In this document: positions 1 through 35,020 of the stretch, one piece after another
Position numbering within the stretch: the stretch's first letter is position 1
Layout: every line of letters begins with the position of its first letter
IMG/VR virus record: IMGVR_UViG_3300038406_000217
Location: 1 to 40,018 of that record
Direction: 5' to 3' (one strand)
Length of the DNA: 40,018 nucleotides
From: a virus
Lineage: Duplodnaviria > Caudoviricetes
Program-made: the position numbers and the translations under genes
The notes under the pieces: model-generated
The model's input: the letters and a program-made list of their open reading frames with translations, nothing else
The model's database searches: none
Told to the model about the DNA's origin: nothing

Positions 1-47
1 CCCCGGTGGTCCGAGCCGCCCGTGAACGGGCAGCCGCCGCCGGGGCC
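1..47. repeat. Terminal overlap, left copy (matches 39972-40018, 45/47 identical)
   Basis: CCCCGGTGGTCCGAGC[C/A]GCCCGTGAA[C/A]GGGCAGCCGCCGCCGGGGCC at both ends. Confidence 0.9.
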
Positions 48-284
48 GCCGCCGGGGCCGCCGCCGGGGCCGCCGCCGGGGCCGCCGCCGGGGCCGCCGC
101 CGGGGCCGCCGCCTGGGACGCCGCCTGGGACGCCGCCGGGGCCGCCGCCGGGGCCGCCGCCGGGGCCGCCGCCAGGGCCGCCGCCAGGGACGTGCTCGCG
201 CCGACCGTCGACCAGTTGCAGACCTCAGCCATCCAGCTGTTCACCACCATGATCCGACCCGACGAGGAGACCGATGTCCGATAG
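1..284 (+). CDS. 3' part of an Ala-rich repeat protein that begins at 39539 and crosses the circular junction
   Basis: Same frame as the 39539 ORF after joining; VVRAARERAAAAGA is shared by both ends; AAAG/AAWD/AAAR repeats, stop at 284. Confidence 0.8.
   Translation, partial: PVVRAARERAAAAGAAAGAAAGAAAGAAAGAAAGAAAWDAAWDAAGAAAGAAAGAAARAAARDVLAPTVDQLQTSAIQLFTTMIRPDEETDVR
33..188 (+). repeat. 13 tandem 12-bp units G(C/A)CGCCGCC(G/T/A)GG
   Basis: Read directly: AAAG x6, AAAW, DAAW, DAAG, AAAG x2, AAAR x2. Confidence 0.92.
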
Positions 285-9997: not shown

Positions 9998-11286
9998 TCC
10001 AGCCGCTGACCGGCAAAGCAGCCCTCAGCGTCAGCCTGGCCACAGCCCGGTACAACATCTGGGAAGGCGCCGTTCGCTCCGGCAAAACCGTCGGCTCCAC
10101 CTTCCGCTGGATGTCCTACGCCCGCAACGGCCCCACCGGCAACCTCGCCATGATCGGCAAAACCGAACGCACCCTCAAACGCAACGTCATCGACCCGATG
10201 ATCGAGCTGGTCGGCGCGAAACGCTGCCGCTACCTCGCCGGCGCCGGCGAGCTGTTCCTCTTCGGCCGCCGCATCTACACCGCCGGCGCCAACGACACCC
10301 GCGCCGTCGAGAAGATCCAAGGCCTCACCCTCGCCGGCGCCTACGGCGACGAAGTCTCCACCTGGCCCGAAAACCTATGGAACATGCTCGGCACCCGGCT
10401 TAGCATCCCCGGCGCCCAGTTCTTCGGAACCTGCAACCCCGCCGGCCCCGTCCACTGGCTGAAGGTCCTACTCGACCAGGCGGCGCTGTGGCTCGACCAC
10501 GACGGCACGGTATCGACCGGGCAGGATAGCGACCCGCTCAACCTGCACCGGTTCAGCTTCACCCTCGGCGACAACCCACACCTAGCCCCGGACTTCATCC
10601 AGGCCTTGAAGCGGCAGTACGCGGGCCTGTTCTACAAGCGGTACATCCAAGGTCTTTGGGTGCCGGCCGAGGGTGCGATCTTCGACATGTTCGACACCAC
10701 CCGGCACGTTGTCGCCGAGCTGCCGGCCATCACCCGATGGATCTCGATGGGTATCGACCACGGCACCCGCAACCCGTTCCACGCCGGTGTGCTCGGCCTC
10801 GGTGTGGACCAGAAGCTGCACCTGGTACGGGACTGGCGTTGGGACTCCGCCCGCCAGCGCCGGCAGCTGAGCGATGCGGAGTACAGCCGTGAGGTCCGGG
10901 CCTGGCTACAGACCGTGCCTATCCCCACCACCGGCCTACGTGGCGTCATGCCTGAGTACACGGTGGTGGACCCGTCCGCGACCGGGTTCCGCGTGCAGCT
11001 GGTCCAGGACGGGCTGCAGAGCATCCTGGCTGACAACGCGGTCCTGCCCGGAATCCGCACCCTCAGCACCCTGTACGCTCTCGACCTGCTCGACATTCAC
11101 GAGTCCTGTACGGAGCTGATCCGGGAGACGATCGGCTACTCGTGGGACGACAAGGCTGCGGCGAAAGGCCTGGATGAGCCGCTGAAGGTTGCCGACCACG
11201 GGCCCGACATGAAGCGGTACGCCGCCCACACCACCCGCAGCATCTGGCGCAGCGAGCTGCGCGAGCGTCTCCACCTTGTAGCCTGA
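9994..11286 (+). CDS. terL: Terminase large subunit (PBSX-like)
   Basis: EGAVRSGKT Walker A, YGDE Walker B, TCNP, DNPHL, GIDHG, VDPSA, DHGPD nuclease motifs; start GTG 9994. Confidence 0.93.
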   Translation: MIQPLTGKAALSVSLATARYNIWEGAVRSGKTVGSTFRWMSYARNGPTGNLAMIGKTERTLKRNVIDPMIELVGAKRCRYLAGAGELFLFGRRIYTAGANDTRAVEKIQGLTLAGAYGDEVSTWPENLWNMLGTRLSIPGAQFFGTCNPAGPVHWLKVLLDQAALWLDHDGTVSTGQDSDPLNLHRFSFTLGDNPHLAPDFIQALKRQYAGLFYKRYIQGLWVPAEGAIFDMFDTTRHVVAELPAITRWISMGIDHGTRNPFHAGVLGLGVDQKLHLVRDWRWDSARQRRQLSDAEYSREVRAWLQTVPIPTTGLRGVMPEYTVVDPSATGFRVQLVQDGLQSILADNAVLPGIRTLSTLYALDLLDIHESCTELIRETIGYSWDDKAAAKGLDEPLKVADHGPDMKRYAAHTTRSIWRSELRERLHLVA

Positions 11287-23813: not shown

Positions 23814-24428
23814 GTGTCACAGCGTACCTGCAACCTGGCTGGATGCGACCGCAAGCACTACGCCAAGGACCTCTGCCAGTCGCACTACCGCAGCGCCCGA
23901 AGCCGTGACCCGACGCGGCCACAGTGTACCCAGCAGGGCTGCGATGCGGCGCTCTACGCTCGGGACTGCTGCCGGCGCCACTACTGCGAACGCTATCTGC
24001 CGGGTTACTGGCACCGCTCGGACGTCTCGGCGAAGCACCGAGAGATCAACCGCCGGTACCACCACGCGAACGCAGCTCGGCGCAACCAGCAGACACAGTC
24101 CTGGCGCCAAGCCAACCCGGGCAAGGTTCGCGCCCATCGCGAACGGTGGCGTGCGGCGAATCCCGAACGTACCCGTCAGCTGAGCCGCGAGAACCAGGCC
24201 CGTAGAAAGGCCAGAGCGCTCGCCACGTCGGTTGAGCCGGTTGACTACGCCGCAGTCTTGCACATGCACGGCATGGTCTGTCACCTTTGCCGGCGCCCGA
24301 TCTCCCACCGGCGGTACCTGCACTTCGACCACGTGATCCCGCTTGCCCGTGGCGGTCACCACGTGGCGAGCAACATCCGTCCAGCGCATAGGCGCTGCAA
24401 CCTCCGTAAGGGCAGTCGGCTGGTCTGA
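23814..24428 (+). CDS. HNH endonuclease with N-terminal Cys-rich repeats
   Basis: C..C, HFDHVIPLARGG.H...N...AH..CN..KG; two C....C....YA...C..HY modules. Confidence 0.88.
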   Translation: MSQRTCNLAGCDRKHYAKDLCQSHYRSARSRDPTRPQCTQQGCDAALYARDCCRRHYCERYLPGYWHRSDVSAKHREINRRYHHANAARRNQQTQSWRQANPGKVRAHRERWRAANPERTRQLSRENQARRKARALATSVEPVDYAAVLHMHGMVCHLCRRPISHRRYLHFDHVIPLARGGHHVASNIRPAHRRCNLRKGSRLV

Positions 24429-32263: not shown

Positions 32264-32532
32264 GTCAGGTCAATGAGTACGTGCCGGATCCGAACGACAC
32301 CGAGCCGCTACGCCGGCCGGCCACCTGGACCGCGATCGCCACCGCCGTGATCGGCCTGGTGGCCGCGTTCGGGCTGGACCTGCCCCCACGCGCCGCAGCG
32401 GCGGCGCTCATCCTGGCCGGCACCGTGGGGCCGCTGCTGGTGTGGCGGTGGGGCCGCCGGCGTGCCTGGTCCGGCGCCACCGTAGCCGACATGCGGACCC
32501 GACCCGCGCCGGGCACGCAGCCGCACCGGTGA
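32260..32532 (+). CDS. Putative holin (2 TM)
   Basis: RBS AGGAG, TTG start overlapping the previous stop; EP...TM-FGLDL-TM-R.R. Confidence 0.65.
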
Positions 32533-32534
32533 CC

Positions 32535-32564
32535 TTGACAACTGGATCGGTTGGGTGCCAGGAT
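32535..32564 (+). promoter_or_regulatory. Promoter of the CRISPR mini-array
   Basis: Consensus TTGACA, 18 nt, TG-extended CAGGAT; predicted start ~32570-71, at the first repeat. Confidence 0.6.
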
Positions 32565-32570
32565 GCCAGT

Positions 32571-32755
32571 CGTCTTCCCGGTCGCGTAGACCGGGCTCCA
32601 TTGTGGCGTGCCGGCCGAGGCACGGCGCCGGCAGGCCGCCGAGCGTCTTCCCGGTCGCGTAGACCGGGCTCCATTGCGGCGTGTCCGCGCGTTCGGCCCC
32701 GATCACCGTCGAGCCCTGCGTCTTCCCGGTCGCGTAGACCGGGCTCCATTGCGGC
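32571..32755 (+). CRISPR. Cas-less CRISPR mini-array: 3 repeats, 2 spacers (type I-G/I-U-like repeat)
   Basis: (C)GTCTTCCCGGTCGCGTAGACCGGGCTCCATTG(C/T)GGC at 32571-607, 32644-680, 32719-755; internal stem CCCGGTC/GACCGGG; unique spacers of 36 and 38 nt. Confidence 0.9.
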
Positions 32756-32770
32756 ATCGCACCCCTATGT

Positions 32771-32816
32771 GGCGGCGGCCCCCGGTCCCCCCGGCCGGGG
32801 GCCGCCGCCGCGTTTC
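32771..32816 (+). terminator. Intrinsic terminator closing the mini-array transcript
   Basis: Perfect 15-bp stem GGCGGCGGCCCCCGG / CCGGGGGCCGCCGCC, then GCGTTTC. Confidence 0.7.
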
Positions 32817-32829
32817 CGCCCGGCCCCTG

Positions 32830-32859
32830 TTGACGACCCTGCCACCGTAGGGTGATACT
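32830..32859 (+). promoter_or_regulatory. Promoter for the 32868 gene (leaderless mRNA likely)
   Basis: TTGACG-18 nt-GATACT, ATG 8 nt downstream, no SD. Confidence 0.55.
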
Positions 32860-32867
32860 CCCCGGTC

Positions 32868-33158
32868 ATGATGCAGATCGACGGCTACATGATCACAGTG
32901 TGGTGGGACGCCAGCCAGCGGACCCTACGGGCCCGCGGCACCACCAAGATCGCACGGTTGGCGCTGCTCGGCGAGCAGCACACCGACGGCGACCTGGTCC
33001 TGGCACGCGACCAGATCGCGCAGGTGCGGCACCGGCCGGCCGGTGCGCTGGTCAACGGGTCGATCACGCTGCACACCACCGCAGGCCGCAAGCACACACT
33101 GCACTTCCGGCGTAAGCACAACGACGACTTCGCCCGCCTCGCCCAGGCCCTCGAGTAA
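32868..33158 (+). CDS. Small PH-like / DUF4429-like protein (moron)
   Basis: I..V...PAGALVNG.I.L.......LHF......F..L..AL pattern; own promoter and terminator. Confidence 0.65.
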   Translation: MMQIDGYMITVWWDASQRTLRARGTTKIARLALLGEQHTDGDLVLARDQIAQVRHRPAGALVNGSITLHTTAGRKHTLHFRRKHNDDFARLAQALE

Positions 33159-33163
33159 CCAAC

Positions 33164-33213
33164 CCGCCCCGCCCCCTCCGGAACCTTCCCCGGGGGGCGG
33201 GGCGGATTTCGTT
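33164..33213 (+). terminator. Intrinsic terminator
   Basis: CCGCCCCGCCCCC / GGGGGCGGGGCGG 13-bp stem followed by ATTTCGTT. Confidence 0.7.
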
Positions 33214-33254
33214 GTCACCAAAGGGCAGCGAGGAGTGATCCGGGTCACTCCGGA

Positions 33255-33602
33255 GTGACCGGTAACGGCCGTACGGCGTTGGACCCGGTACCGGCGGGAG
33301 GAAGGATCACCAACTTCCGCCATGCCCTCCGAACCTTGACGGCCGTGGTCTACGTACCGGCGGGCCGCGCCGCGGACCGGTGGCGATACGAGTGCGCCCG
33401 GTTGTGCCTGGCGATGCGCTGGACGCTGGTGGCGCTCACCGCAGATCCGGGCACCGCGCGGCGGCTACTGGTGGAGGGCCGGGCGGTGCGGGTGGTGGTG
33501 GCCCGGCCGGCGCATGCCCGGCAGGTGCAGCTGCCGGTGGTGGTGGTTACCGACCCGACCGGCCGGCCGCAGGATCCGGGGCGGCCGCGCAGGCTGCGTT
33601 GA
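33255..33602 (+). CDS. Hypothetical protein resembling a catalytically dead serine-resolvase N-terminal fold
   Basis: AVVY, C...C....W.LV....D, G.A..VVV spacing; the YxRVS motif is absent; 3' end overlaps the integrase end. Confidence 0.45.
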   Translation: MTGNGRTALDPVPAGGRITNFRHALRTLTAVVYVPAGRAADRWRYECARLCLAMRWTLVALTADPGTARRLLVEGRAVRVVVARPAHARQVQLPVVVVTDPTGRPQDPGRPRRLR

Positions 33603-34386
33603 GCGCCGGAAGCCGGGCGACCGCCGCGGCCAGCCGGGGGCCGGCGACCAGCACATACCCGAGCGTGGTCGTGATCCGGCTGTGGCCCATGAGGACCTGA
33701 ACCTCTTCGATGCTCGCGCCGTTGGCGACCAGGGTGGTGCCGTACCAGTGCCGCAGCTGGTGGGCGGTGACGTCCACCCCGAGGGCGAGGTACTCCGCCC
33801 GCAGCCGGCCGCTGACGTAGTCGCCTGACCGGCCGGGCGCCACCGTCCCGGCCGGCAGCCCGGCGACCGCCTTCCATACCGCGGGGTGGGTGGGCACCAC
33901 GCGCGCCTTGCCGCCCTTCCCGCGGACTACCCGTAGCCGCCCCTCGGTGACGTGCTCCCGGTGCAACCCGGCGATCTCGCAGCACCGCAGCCCGGCATAG
34001 GCCGCCATCGTCGACCAGGATCGGCACGGCTGCCGGGCGCGCTGCAGGATGGTCGCCAGCTGGTCGTCGGTGCAGGGGTTCGGCAGCCCGGCCGGTTGCG
34101 GTGGGCGGCGCAGCGTCCGGGCCTCGTCCCGGTCCAGGTGCCCGGTGATGACCGCCCAGGCCGCGAAGGCGCGGAAGGCCGCGAGGTAGGTGCGTTTCGT
34201 GGCTGGATCCCGGTAGGGGGTCAGCCACATGGCGATCTCGTCGCCGGTGGCCGTGGGCACCCCGTGGGGCAGCTCCCGGTGCGCCGCCCAAAGGACAACG
34301 CCGTATGTGCGGATCGTCTTCGCGGCCCGGCCCTGCAGGGCCAGCGCCGCAAGAAAATCCTCGATCAGGTCACCGTCTGGGTTCAC
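33547..34386 (-). CDS. int: Tyrosine integrase (short, no arm-binding domain)
   Basis: AGLR..E, V.GKGGK.R.VP, HQLRH, LMGH..I.TT..Y catalytic residues. Confidence 0.92.
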   Translation of the reverse strand: MNPDGDLIEDFLAALALQGRAAKTIRTYGVVLWAAHRELPHGVPTATGDEIAMWLTPYRDPATKRTYLAAFRAFAAWAVITGHLDRDEARTLRRPPQPAGLPNPCTDDQLATILQRARQPCRSWSTMAAYAGLRCCEIAGLHREHVTEGRLRVVRGKGGKARVVPTHPAVWKAVAGLPAGTVAPGRSGDYVSGRLRAEYLALGVDVTAHQLRHWYGTTLVANGASIEEVQVLMGHSRITTTLGYVLVAGPRLAAAVARLPALNAACAAAPDPAAGRSGR

Positions 34387-34886
34387 GCTGTAGTCATCGG
34401 CCGGTCGGGGCCTTGGGGGCGTGGCCCGGCTGGGCGGGAGAGTCGGACCGGCCGGGGGTGGTGGGTGCTGGGCTGCGGGCGGGTGCTGGCCTGGTCGGGG
34501 GAGCCGGGGTGTGACCGGGTGGTCTGGGGACGGAGCTCGTTCGGGGGAGGAGAGGTGACGATGTGGGTGGATCCGGGATAGCGGGAAGTTAACCTGTGGG
34601 GGTTGGGCTCACCGGCCCGGGTGACCACCCGCGGCCGGGTCGAGACAGCCGGGGTCGGCTCGGCAACTTCGACCGGAAACAGGTCGAGCACCCGCACGTC
34701 GAGCGCCGCCGCGATCCGCTGTAGGTCGTCAAGGTCGATCGCGGTTGCGCCGGTGAGCCTGGCCGAGATCGCACTCTGGGACATGCCGGTCGCCTCTGCG
34801 AGATGCCTGCCGCTGATCCTGCGGCGTGCCAGCAGCGCTCGGATTTCCTCAGCGACCTGTGCGCTTAGCGTGGGTCTCGTCGTCAT
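34383..34886 (-). CDS. Immunity repressor (XRE HTH) with long disordered C-terminal tail
   Basis: VA.EIR..LARR.IS...LA..TGMSQSAIS.RL.G.....LDDL..IA.AL.V; divergent from cro, GTGA-coupled to int. Confidence 0.85.
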   Translation of the reverse strand: MTTRPTLSAQVAEEIRALLARRRISGRHLAEATGMSQSAISARLTGATAIDLDDLQRIAAALDVRVLDLFPVEVAEPTPAVSTRPRVVTRAGEPNPHRLTSRYPGSTHIVTSPPPNELRPQTTRSHPGSPDQASTRPQPSTHHPRPVRLSRPAGPRPQGPDRPMTTA

Positions 34887-34892
34887 GGCGAC

Positions 34893-34922
34893 ATGATGAC
34901 CCGCTGAGCGGGTCATAGGCAA
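34893..34922 (-). promoter_or_regulatory. Repressor promoter with 21-bp palindromic operator (34896-34916)
   Basis: Minus strand TTGCCT-18 nt-CATCAT, 6 nt before ATG; ATGACCCGCT-G-AGCGGGTCAT perfect inverted repeat. Confidence 0.65.
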
Positions 34923-34985
34923 CCCCTGTAGGTCATCTACGGGTCAGTCGTTCGGCTGATTCTCGGATCGGCTACCAGCCAGCCC

Positions 34986-35014
34986 TTGACGTTGCCAGAA
35001 AATCTGGTCATCGT
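34986..35014 (+). promoter_or_regulatory. Early lytic promoter with related operator (34991-35011)
   Basis: TTGACG-17 nt-CATCGT, 6 nt before the cro ATG; GTTGCCAGAAAATCTGGTCAT resembles the left operator. Confidence 0.65.
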
Positions 35015-35020
35015 GTTGGC

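What the first reader, a model, noticed from the sequence alone, without database searches (positions are those of the whole stretch)
32571..32755. Phage-borne, cas-less CRISPR mini-array with type I-G(I-U)-like repeats
Seen: three 36-37 nt repeats (1 mismatch in total) with a 7-bp internal hairpin and a 3' end CTCCATTGCGGC, separated by two unique spacers (GTGCCGGCCGAGGCACGGCGCCGGCAGGCCGCCGAG; GTGTCCGCGCGTTCGGCCCCGATCACCGTCGAGCCCTG). No cas1/cas2/Cascade/cas3 genes are present in the genome. Known: virus-encoded mini-arrays borrow host Cas proteins to attack competing viruses; from memory, repeats of this length ending CTCCATTG(C/A)(G/A)GC occur in actinobacterial type I-G systems. Inference: the prophage reprograms the host I-G effector against rival phages/MGEs or host genes. 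By eye I found no full self-match for either spacer.
Basis: partly seen in the sequence, partly recalled or inferred. Interest (0 to 1): 0.9.

Follow-up and report, generated by a model that had tools for sequence, protein, structure and literature searches.

The report
Actinophage type I-G CRISPR mini-array
A sediment actinophage with an integrase carries a three-repeat, two-spacer CRISPR array and no cas genes; its repeat and a shortened leader match a type I-G array from the same sediments that holds a spacer against this phage, so the phage likely borrows its host's Cas proteins to fend off rival viruses, a known strategy, although its own targets were not found.

Summary
In detail: three 36-nt repeats (one mismatch) and spacers of 37 and 39 nt lie after the holin of a 40-kb phage with integrase and repressor and no cas gene. 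The repeat is type I-G. Repeats 5 to 9 nt away, mainly in the hairpin loop, flank csb1/csb2 and cas3g or cas4g-cas1g operons. In sediment runs holding the phage, a high-depth resident repeat is identical over nt 5-36. One of its spacers matches this phage's terminase (30/30, TTC flank), which most likely identifies the host. The 36-39 nt before the array match the resident leader's core, but about 60 nt with conserved leader motifs are missing. The cassette is therefore likely transcribed but unable to gain spacers. Sister strains carry other DNA in this slot. No convincing target was found for either spacer. A second actinophage's I-G mini-array matches related phages with a TTG flank, which supports phage-against-phage use indirectly. 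Verdict: new member of a known kind (virus-borne mini-array). The scan noted I-G phage mini-arrays on other DNA before.

The parts
32532..32571 (+). Shortened leader: core of the resident type I-G leader, joined almost directly to repeat 1; holds a promoter-like site (TTGACA 32535-32540, 18 nt, CAGGAT 32559-32564 with TG before it)
   Evidence: 36-39 nt match (1-2 differences) to leader-like contigs in runs X1, X3, X4; core lies at -38 here and at -97 to -100 in 5 host leaders. Promoter function is inferred; the sigma-70 scan did not call it.
32572..32607 (+). Repeat 1 (36 nt; one base change in the predicted 8-nt 5' handle of crRNA 1)
32608..32644 (+). Spacer 1 (37 nt); no target found
32645..32680 (+). 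Repeat 2 (36 nt); nt 5-36 identical to the high-depth resident repeat
   Evidence: column conservation against 26 host repeats
32681..32719 (+). Spacer 2 (39 nt); only lead is a 24-nt match to a terminase gene of another phage, without a TTN flank
32720..32755 (+). Repeat 3 (36 nt, intact, not degenerate)
32767..32813 (+). 21-bp GC-rich hairpin, likely a terminator; belongs to the phage backbone
   Evidence: fold z = -4.78, 0 of 200 shuffles as stable; 32762-32800 is shared (2-3 differences) by sister strains that lack the array; no U tract, not called by the scan
10255..10287 (+). Protospacer in the terminase large subunit gene (10258-10287 or longer) with TTC flank (10255-10257), matched by a spacer that follows this repeat in run X1
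   Evidence: (X1 record 6, loose end) compared; gene identity
33547..34922 (-). Tyrosine integrase and repressor (temperate lifestyle inferred)

Best explanation
This is a cas-less type I-G CRISPR mini-array on a phage with an integrase, likely taken from its host's own CRISPR locus and likely used to load the host's Cascade and Cas3 with guides against rival mobile elements. Shown: the array; its I-G repeat; a resident repeat identical over nt 5-36; a resident spacer matching this phage with a TTC flank; a leader core shared with resident leader-like contigs; loss of about 60 nt of leader holding conserved motifs; replacement of the cassette in sister strains. Inferred: a promoter in the leader core drives a transcript from about repeat 1 to the backbone hairpin in the lysogen; host Csb2 cuts each repeat 4 nt after the stem to give two crRNAs with 8-nt handles and full-length spacers; host Cascade and Cas3 then destroy DNA with a match next to a TTN motif. 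Also inferred: the array cannot gain spacers, so it changes by recombination or by replacement of the whole cassette. The targets are unknown.
For: Repeat family: 52 loci carry the motif; closest repeats differ by 4 nt, all in the loop (Gordonia amarae); 6 of the 7 loci whose genes I scanned hold type I-G genes. Geometry (36 nt, 7-bp stem, 12-nt tail) equals that of the characterised I-G repeat cut 4 nt after a 7-bp stem to leave an 8-nt handle (passages of 10.1101/2022.08.08.503147). Spacers of 37 and 39 nt fall in the host range (755 of 790 host spacers are 35-39 nt). Cognate system in the habitat: repeat nt 5-36 at depth 2500 (X1) and 5833 (X4) against 9-12 and about 3 for the phage. Of 3 long contigs that start with this repeat, 2 continue into phage sequence: this phage's terminase (30/30, TTC) and the tape measure gene of related phage G416 (36/36, TTG). 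Parallel case: the I-G mini-array of phage L001 has a spacer matching one gene of 6 related phages at 23-28/37, all 6 with TTG; 30 shuffled spacers reached at most 26.
Against: No convincing protospacer for either spacer in IMG/VR, JGI metagenomes (spacer 2 only), GenBank phages, plasmids, 401 family genomes, 12 related phage records or the contigs of 4 runs at 85% likeness. Expression is untested; the sigma-70 scan does not call the site. The resident repeat differs within nt 1-4. The resident array's cas genes were not seen, so its link to an active I-G operon rests on the repeat and leader family. A phage that is itself targeted would also gain from jamming the system rather than using it. 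Sister strains do well without the cassette (depth 79 in X2).
Confidence: 0.62

Rival explanations
1. RNA anti-CRISPR: the guides serve as decoys that occupy the host's Cascade, or as repressors of the cas promoter (Cracr or Racr mode), protecting a phage that the host already targets.
For: A resident spacer matches this phage's terminase with a TTC flank, so there is something to escape. No foreign target was found. Phage arrays that repress cas promoters and compete for Cas proteins are described for types V-A, I-E and I-F (passages of 10.1101/2024.10.29.618823; 10.1101/2023.03.03.530964).
Against: Spacers are full length and all three repeats are intact, whereas the described Cracr RNAs have shorter spacers or degenerate repeats. 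In 55 related loci a TTN flank plus 11-nt seed (at most 1 mismatch) gave 2 hits for spacer 1 (one place seen twice, 17/37) and 0 for spacer 2. The true host's cas promoter could not be read.
Confidence: 0.2
2. Neutral passenger: a piece of host leader and array picked up by recombination into a variable slot after the lysis genes, without benefit.
For: The slot is polymorphic, with at least three alleles, and an allele without the array is the abundant one in X2. No target found. Repeat 1 has a base change.
Against: The part of the leader that was kept is the part with a promoter-like site, now placed 7 nt before repeat 1; the core is also kept in a third allele (X3 record 12); repeats are nearly perfect; a separate phage carries an I-G mini-array after its holin whose spacer points at related phages.
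Confidence: 0.15
3. Not CRISPR: a dispersed REP- or IS-type repeat, or an assembly chimera between phage and host array.
For: No single contig of run X1 spans the whole array, and spacer 2 and the repeat 3 junction are not covered there.
Against: The repeat belongs to long cas-linked arrays. In X1 the holin-leader-repeat 1 junction (record 1, depth 9) and repeat 1-spacer 1-repeat 2 (record 4, depth 12) are at phage depth with no other letters, and carry the phage's own repeat 1 variant.
Confidence: 0.03

Closest known systems
Virus-borne mini-CRISPR arrays of Saccharolobus portogloboviruses SPV1/SPV2 (Medvedeva et al. 2019, PMC6858448; passages read)
   Same: 1-2 spacers, no cas genes, repeat and leader similar to the host's, promoter in the leader.
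   Different: Bacterial type I-G rather than archaeal; SPV leaders resemble the host's and are thought to allow acquisition, whereas this leader has lost about 60 nt with conserved motifs; SPV spacers have known targets, these do not.
Bacteriophage and prophage mini-arrays (Faure et al. 2019, not read; seen as summarised in passages of PMC7099407 and PMC6858448; survey in 10.1101/2023.03.03.530964)
   Same: Temperate phage, cas-less, repeat like the host's, leader unlike the host's, which is thought to preclude acquisition.
   Different: Here the leader can be traced to a deletion of the resident leader. The terms I-G and I-U do not occur in the main text of the 2023 survey; its tables S8 and S10 were not among the supplements I could search, so I-G cases may be listed there. 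It names a mini-array in Saccharomonospora phage PIS 136 without the type in the passage seen.
Type I-G CRISPR-Cas (Thioalkalivibrio sulfidiphilus, 10.1101/2022.08.08.503147; Bifidobacterium lactis, PMC12915315; passages read)
   Same: 36-nt repeat, 7-bp stem, predicted 8-nt handle, TTN-type flank; the leader-repeat-spacer-repeat-terminator design used for editing in B. lactis is the same layout.
   Different: No cas genes and no complete leader on the phage.
Cracr and Racr RNA anti-CRISPRs (10.1101/2024.10.29.618823; PMC10651486; passages read)
   Same: Phage-encoded, repeat-derived small RNAs after a promoter, depending on host Cas proteins.
   Different: Not a solitary repeat; spacers full length; repeats intact; no match to a cas promoter found; the term I-G does not occur in either main text.

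Membership tests
Type I-G CRISPR array | 36-nt repeat with 7-bp stem and 12-nt 3' tail, matching repeats next to csb1/csb2/cas3g operons | tested here: met
Type I-G CRISPR array | Unique spacers of host length between regularly spaced repeats | tested here: met
   37 and 39 nt; 755 of 790 host spacers are 35-39 nt
[quoted passage not shown] | Adjacent cas operon | tested here: not met
   not filed as a complete system
[quoted passage not shown] | Full leader with the conserved motifs at -52, about -131 and at the repeat junction | tested here: not met
   Motifs in 22, 23 and 21 of 37 upstream regions of host arrays (the 37 include non-leader regions); none of the three in the phage
Virus-borne mini-CRISPR array | 1-2 spacers on a virus genome without cas genes | tested here: met
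Virus-borne mini-CRISPR array | Repeat identical or nearly identical to the host's | tested here: met
   nt 5-36 identical to a resident high-depth repeat that carries a spacer against this phage; nt 1-4 differ at one or more places; host link inferred
Virus-borne mini-CRISPR array | Spacers do not match the carrier | tested here: met
   best 25/37 and 24/38; no TWN-flanked seed match above 22/37
Virus-borne mini-CRISPR array | Spacers match other viruses of the same host with a valid PAM | tested here: inconclusive
   No target found; one 24-nt lead without TTN
Virus-borne mini-CRISPR array | Transcribed, processed and active with host Cas proteins | not testable with these tools
   needs small-RNA sequencing and an interference assay
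Cracr (cas-repressing RNA anti-CRISPR) | Shortened spacer or degenerate repeat | tested here: not met
Cracr (cas-repressing RNA anti-CRISPR) | Partial match with PAM in the host's cas promoter | tested here: inconclusive
   No good match in 55 related loci; the true host's locus is not held
Racr / solitary repeat unit | Single repeat without an array | tested here: not met
   three repeats (definition)

The most novel reading that the evidence does not exclude
The phage, already targeted by its host's type I-G array, stole the front of that array, cut the leader down to a promoter-only cassette, and uses the two guides to tie up or redirect the host's I-G Cascade: a first RNA-based counter-defence for type I-G, kept in a swappable slot where sister phages carry other cargo.
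Probability: 0.18. Interest if true: 0.65.

Novelty: new member of a known kind. Interest (0 to 1): 0.42.

Why it matters
It extends phage-against-phage use of CRISPR to type I-G in actinomycetes and gives an unusually clear view of how such a cassette is built. The leader can be aligned with the resident leader from the same sediments and shows what was kept (the promoter-like core) and what was lost (the conserved motifs next to the first repeat). That makes a stated but untested idea testable: that phage mini-arrays are expressed but cannot acquire spacers. It also maps a candidate minimal promoter and candidate acquisition motifs for I-G leaders. Without targets or expression data it remains an addition to a known class.

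Tried and rejected
Exact repeat: 0 matches in GTDB genomes, IMG/VR, JGI metagenomes, GenBank phages, and 0 of 401 class-level genomes at up to 2 mismatches; the host is not among the genomes searched. Spacer 1: N-tolerant scans of IMG/VR in two frames found 0; best GenBank phage hits have E>=0.1; 27/37 matches in G002/G003 are within the shuffled range of 25-28 and have no TTN flank. Spacer 2: N-tolerant scan of JGI metagenomes found 0; GenBank hits have E about 7. The L067/L068 terminase match (30/39, 24 in a row, antisense) is kept only as a lead: chance per position is about 1e-12 for the 22-mer searched, so it is not easily chance if some 1e10 GC-rich positions were scanned (my assumption), but the flank is AGC, position 1 is mismatched and only 6 of the last 14 bases match. 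Homing or cut-and-rescue against the sister allele: the contigs with the 273-nt allele show no piece matching either spacer. 790 host spacers from other genomes do not target the window (best 20 nt). A looser repeat scan of IMG/VR gave 3 loci, 1 real (L001) and 2 chance. Rfam: nothing near a gathering score. No attP found in 34380-35020 in 121 genomes. The leader core with 1 mismatch hit 6 of 401 family genomes; not followed up. No RNA holder listed. A note that the X3 allele holds a full leader was withdrawn: the two X3 loose ends agree at only 0.67. Literature: no paper held all of mini-array, CRISPR, phage and type I-G; the listings showed no actinophage I-G mini-array by title or abstract start.

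Full report
1. Observation. The array is real. Repeats lie at 32572-32607, 32645-32680 and 32720-32755. Repeat 1 has one base change at nt 33. In register with host repeats the unit is 36 nt and the spacers are 37 and 39 nt. The longest exact run at 55-95 nt spacing is 38, against 10-14 in 20 shuffles. Neither spacer matches the phage itself (best 25/37 and 24/38).

2. Carrier. The window is a whole phage record of 40,018 nt with a 47-nt terminal repeat. PHROGs finds terminase, portal, capsid, tail, holin, integrase, repressor, a second repressor-like gene, WhiB and a helicase, and no cas family among 51 ORFs. Thirteen I-G Cas proteins give no tblastn hit and Cas1 is absent. The array sits between the holin stop (32530-32532) and a 21-bp hairpin (32767-32813), about 800 nt from the end of the integrase. 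The few named homologues point to Micromonosporaceae: integrase 44% to Phytohabitans rumicis, lysin 53% to Catellatospora. The host family is inferred.

3. Repeat type. A loop-tolerant pattern found 52 loci in GTDB genomes, 51 in records titled as Actinomycetota taxa and one single copy in an alphaproteobacterial record. The closest repeats differ by 4 nt, all in the loop (Gordonia amarae). I scanned 30 ORFs from 7 of the 52 loci: 6 loci hold type I-G genes (csb1 and csb2 in all six, with cas3g, cas4g-cas1g, cas8g or the Cas3-adjacent gene), and one single-copy locus holds carotenoid genes. The fold (7-bp stem, 12-nt tail) has the geometry of the characterised I-G repeat, which Csb2 cuts 4 nt after the stem to leave an 8-nt handle; that system uses a TTN PAM (passages of 10.1101/2022.08.08.503147). 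The cas genes and leaders lie on the same side in the host loci, so the + strand is the likely sense strand.

4. The cognate system where the phage lives. Five public runs hold part of the region; I laid four, all sediment metagenomes kept as contigs. X1 may be the window's own source, and the four may be one campaign. In X1 and X4 short contigs identical to repeat nt 5-36 have depth 2500 and 5833, while the phage has depth 9-12 and about 3. Dividing by the depth of the leader-like contigs gives roughly 60 and 95 copies per leader (my estimate). The resident repeat differs within nt 1-4. Three long contigs start with the repeat. The letters after it match, in one, this phage's terminase gene at 10258-10287 (30/30, preceded by TTC), and in another the tape measure gene of related phage G416 (36/36, preceded by TTG). 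The third is unassigned. The simplest reading is that the resident array belongs to this phage's host and has acquired spacers with TTN flanks. I could not see the rest of those contigs, so a rival phage's mini-array cannot be excluded as the source, and the resident cas genes were not seen.

5. The leader. Host I-G leaders are phased. Of 37 distinct upstream regions (some are not leaders), 22 have a GCTCG motif at -52 or -53, 23 at about -131, and 21 a GCGAGC-like motif at the repeat junction; 5 have a TTGACAAC-like core at -97 to -100. The phage has none of the three motifs and has the core at -38. Window 32532-32567/70 matches, with 1-2 differences, six contigs in X1, X3 and X4 (depth 5.7-46). 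In X1 and X4 their flanks show the distal and the -52 motifs in the host spacing. So the phage leader is the resident leader's core with about 60 nt missing. That these motifs serve spacer acquisition is inferred from their position and from what is known of other type I leaders (recalled; search listing only). The kept part reads TTGACA, 18 nt, CAGGAT with TG before it, ending 7 nt before repeat 1. Promoter function is therefore likely, not shown.

6. A swappable slot. A close sister strain in X2 (depth 79) and one in X3 have 32535-32761 replaced by 273 other letters and keep the holin and the hairpin. A third allele (X3 record 12) has 82 other letters, then the leader core, then 58 letters that are not shown to be leader-like. 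More distant relatives lack the array: of 10 related phage records searched, only G001 has this repeat.

7. Targets. None found with confidence; the searches are listed under Tried and rejected. The one lead is a 24-nt run of spacer 2 in the terminase gene of phage L067/L068, with an AGC flank and 6 of the last 14 bases matching. Indirect support comes from phage L001, which has a two-repeat I-G array after its holin. Its spacer matches one small gene of six phages that share the lysin or integrase with the window's phage, at 23-28/37 with the peptide conserved, and all six have TTG in front. The six are related, so they are not independent. Thirty shuffled versions reached at most 26/37. The window lacks that gene (best tblastn E 0.012).

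8. Mechanism. Most likely (0.62): in the lysogen the cassette is transcribed from the kept core, host Csb2 makes two crRNAs, and host Cascade with Cas3 destroys incoming elements that match. The array is frozen and turns over by replacement. Rivals: RNA decoy or cas repressor (0.2), neutral passenger (0.15), artefact (0.03). Shown and inferred steps are separated in Best explanation.

9. Comparison. It works like the virus-borne mini-arrays of Medvedeva et al. 2019 (passages) and those summarised from Faure et al. 2019 (not read; passages of PMC7099407). It meets the structural criteria of that class; the targeting criterion is open. It is not a complete I-G locus, not a solitary repeat and not a typical Cracr. 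I found no paper on an I-G mini-array in an actinophage, but the 2023 survey's tables could not be searched and Faure et al. was not read. This scan has noted I-G phage mini-arrays on other DNA (unchecked AI notes).

10. Verdict. New member of a known kind; interest 0.42. The traced leader deletion and the spacer link to the host are the useful additions. Missing targets and missing expression data limit it.

Noticed in passing
L001:2997-3105 (IMGVR_UViG_3300037478_000259): Another actinophage has a two-repeat I-G mini-array (second repeat degenerate) after its holin and a small ORF with a signal-like N-terminus and two cysteines. Its spacer points, with a TTG flank, at a similar small gene in six related phages.
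   Followed up: partly
L054:8855-9070, L055:8454-8663, L105:11611-11826, L106:13639-13899, L108:6070-6285, L109:15087-15332: A conserved gene of about 70 codons (signal-like N-terminus, then a two-cysteine peptide) lies after the holin in these phages; it could be a secreted signalling or exclusion peptide. The window's phage lacks it.
   Followed up: partly
window 32830-33158 (+): A 96-aa ORF with its own promoter-like site, weak DUF4429 hit below cut-off, PH-like neighbours as leads only and 2 homologues. Kept in sister strains; a candidate lysogen-expressed gene.
   Followed up: partly
window 33160-33330 and 33602-33607: Two more variable slots: the X2 sister strain has 59 other letters in place of 171, and 329 extra letters at 33602.
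   Followed up: no
L002-L053, 170 nt before the first repeat: Actinomycete I-G leaders share strictly phased motifs at -52, about -131 and at the junction; I did not find out whether this is published.
   Followed up: partly
window 23814-24428 (+): An HNH endonuclease gene sits among the tail genes, before the major tail protein.
   Followed up: no
window 33547-34922 (-): Repressor and integrase are co-oriented and overlap, and the repressor has a long low-complexity tail, a layout recalled from phages with integration-dependent immunity; no attachment site was found.
   Followed up: partly
window 1-200: A 12-nt tandem repeat of about 15 copies at the start of the record, next to the 47-nt terminal repeat.
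   Followed up: no
window 32608-32644: Predicted crRNA 1 folds on itself (z = -2.14, 8 of 200 shuffles as stable), which could lower its loading.
   Followed up: no
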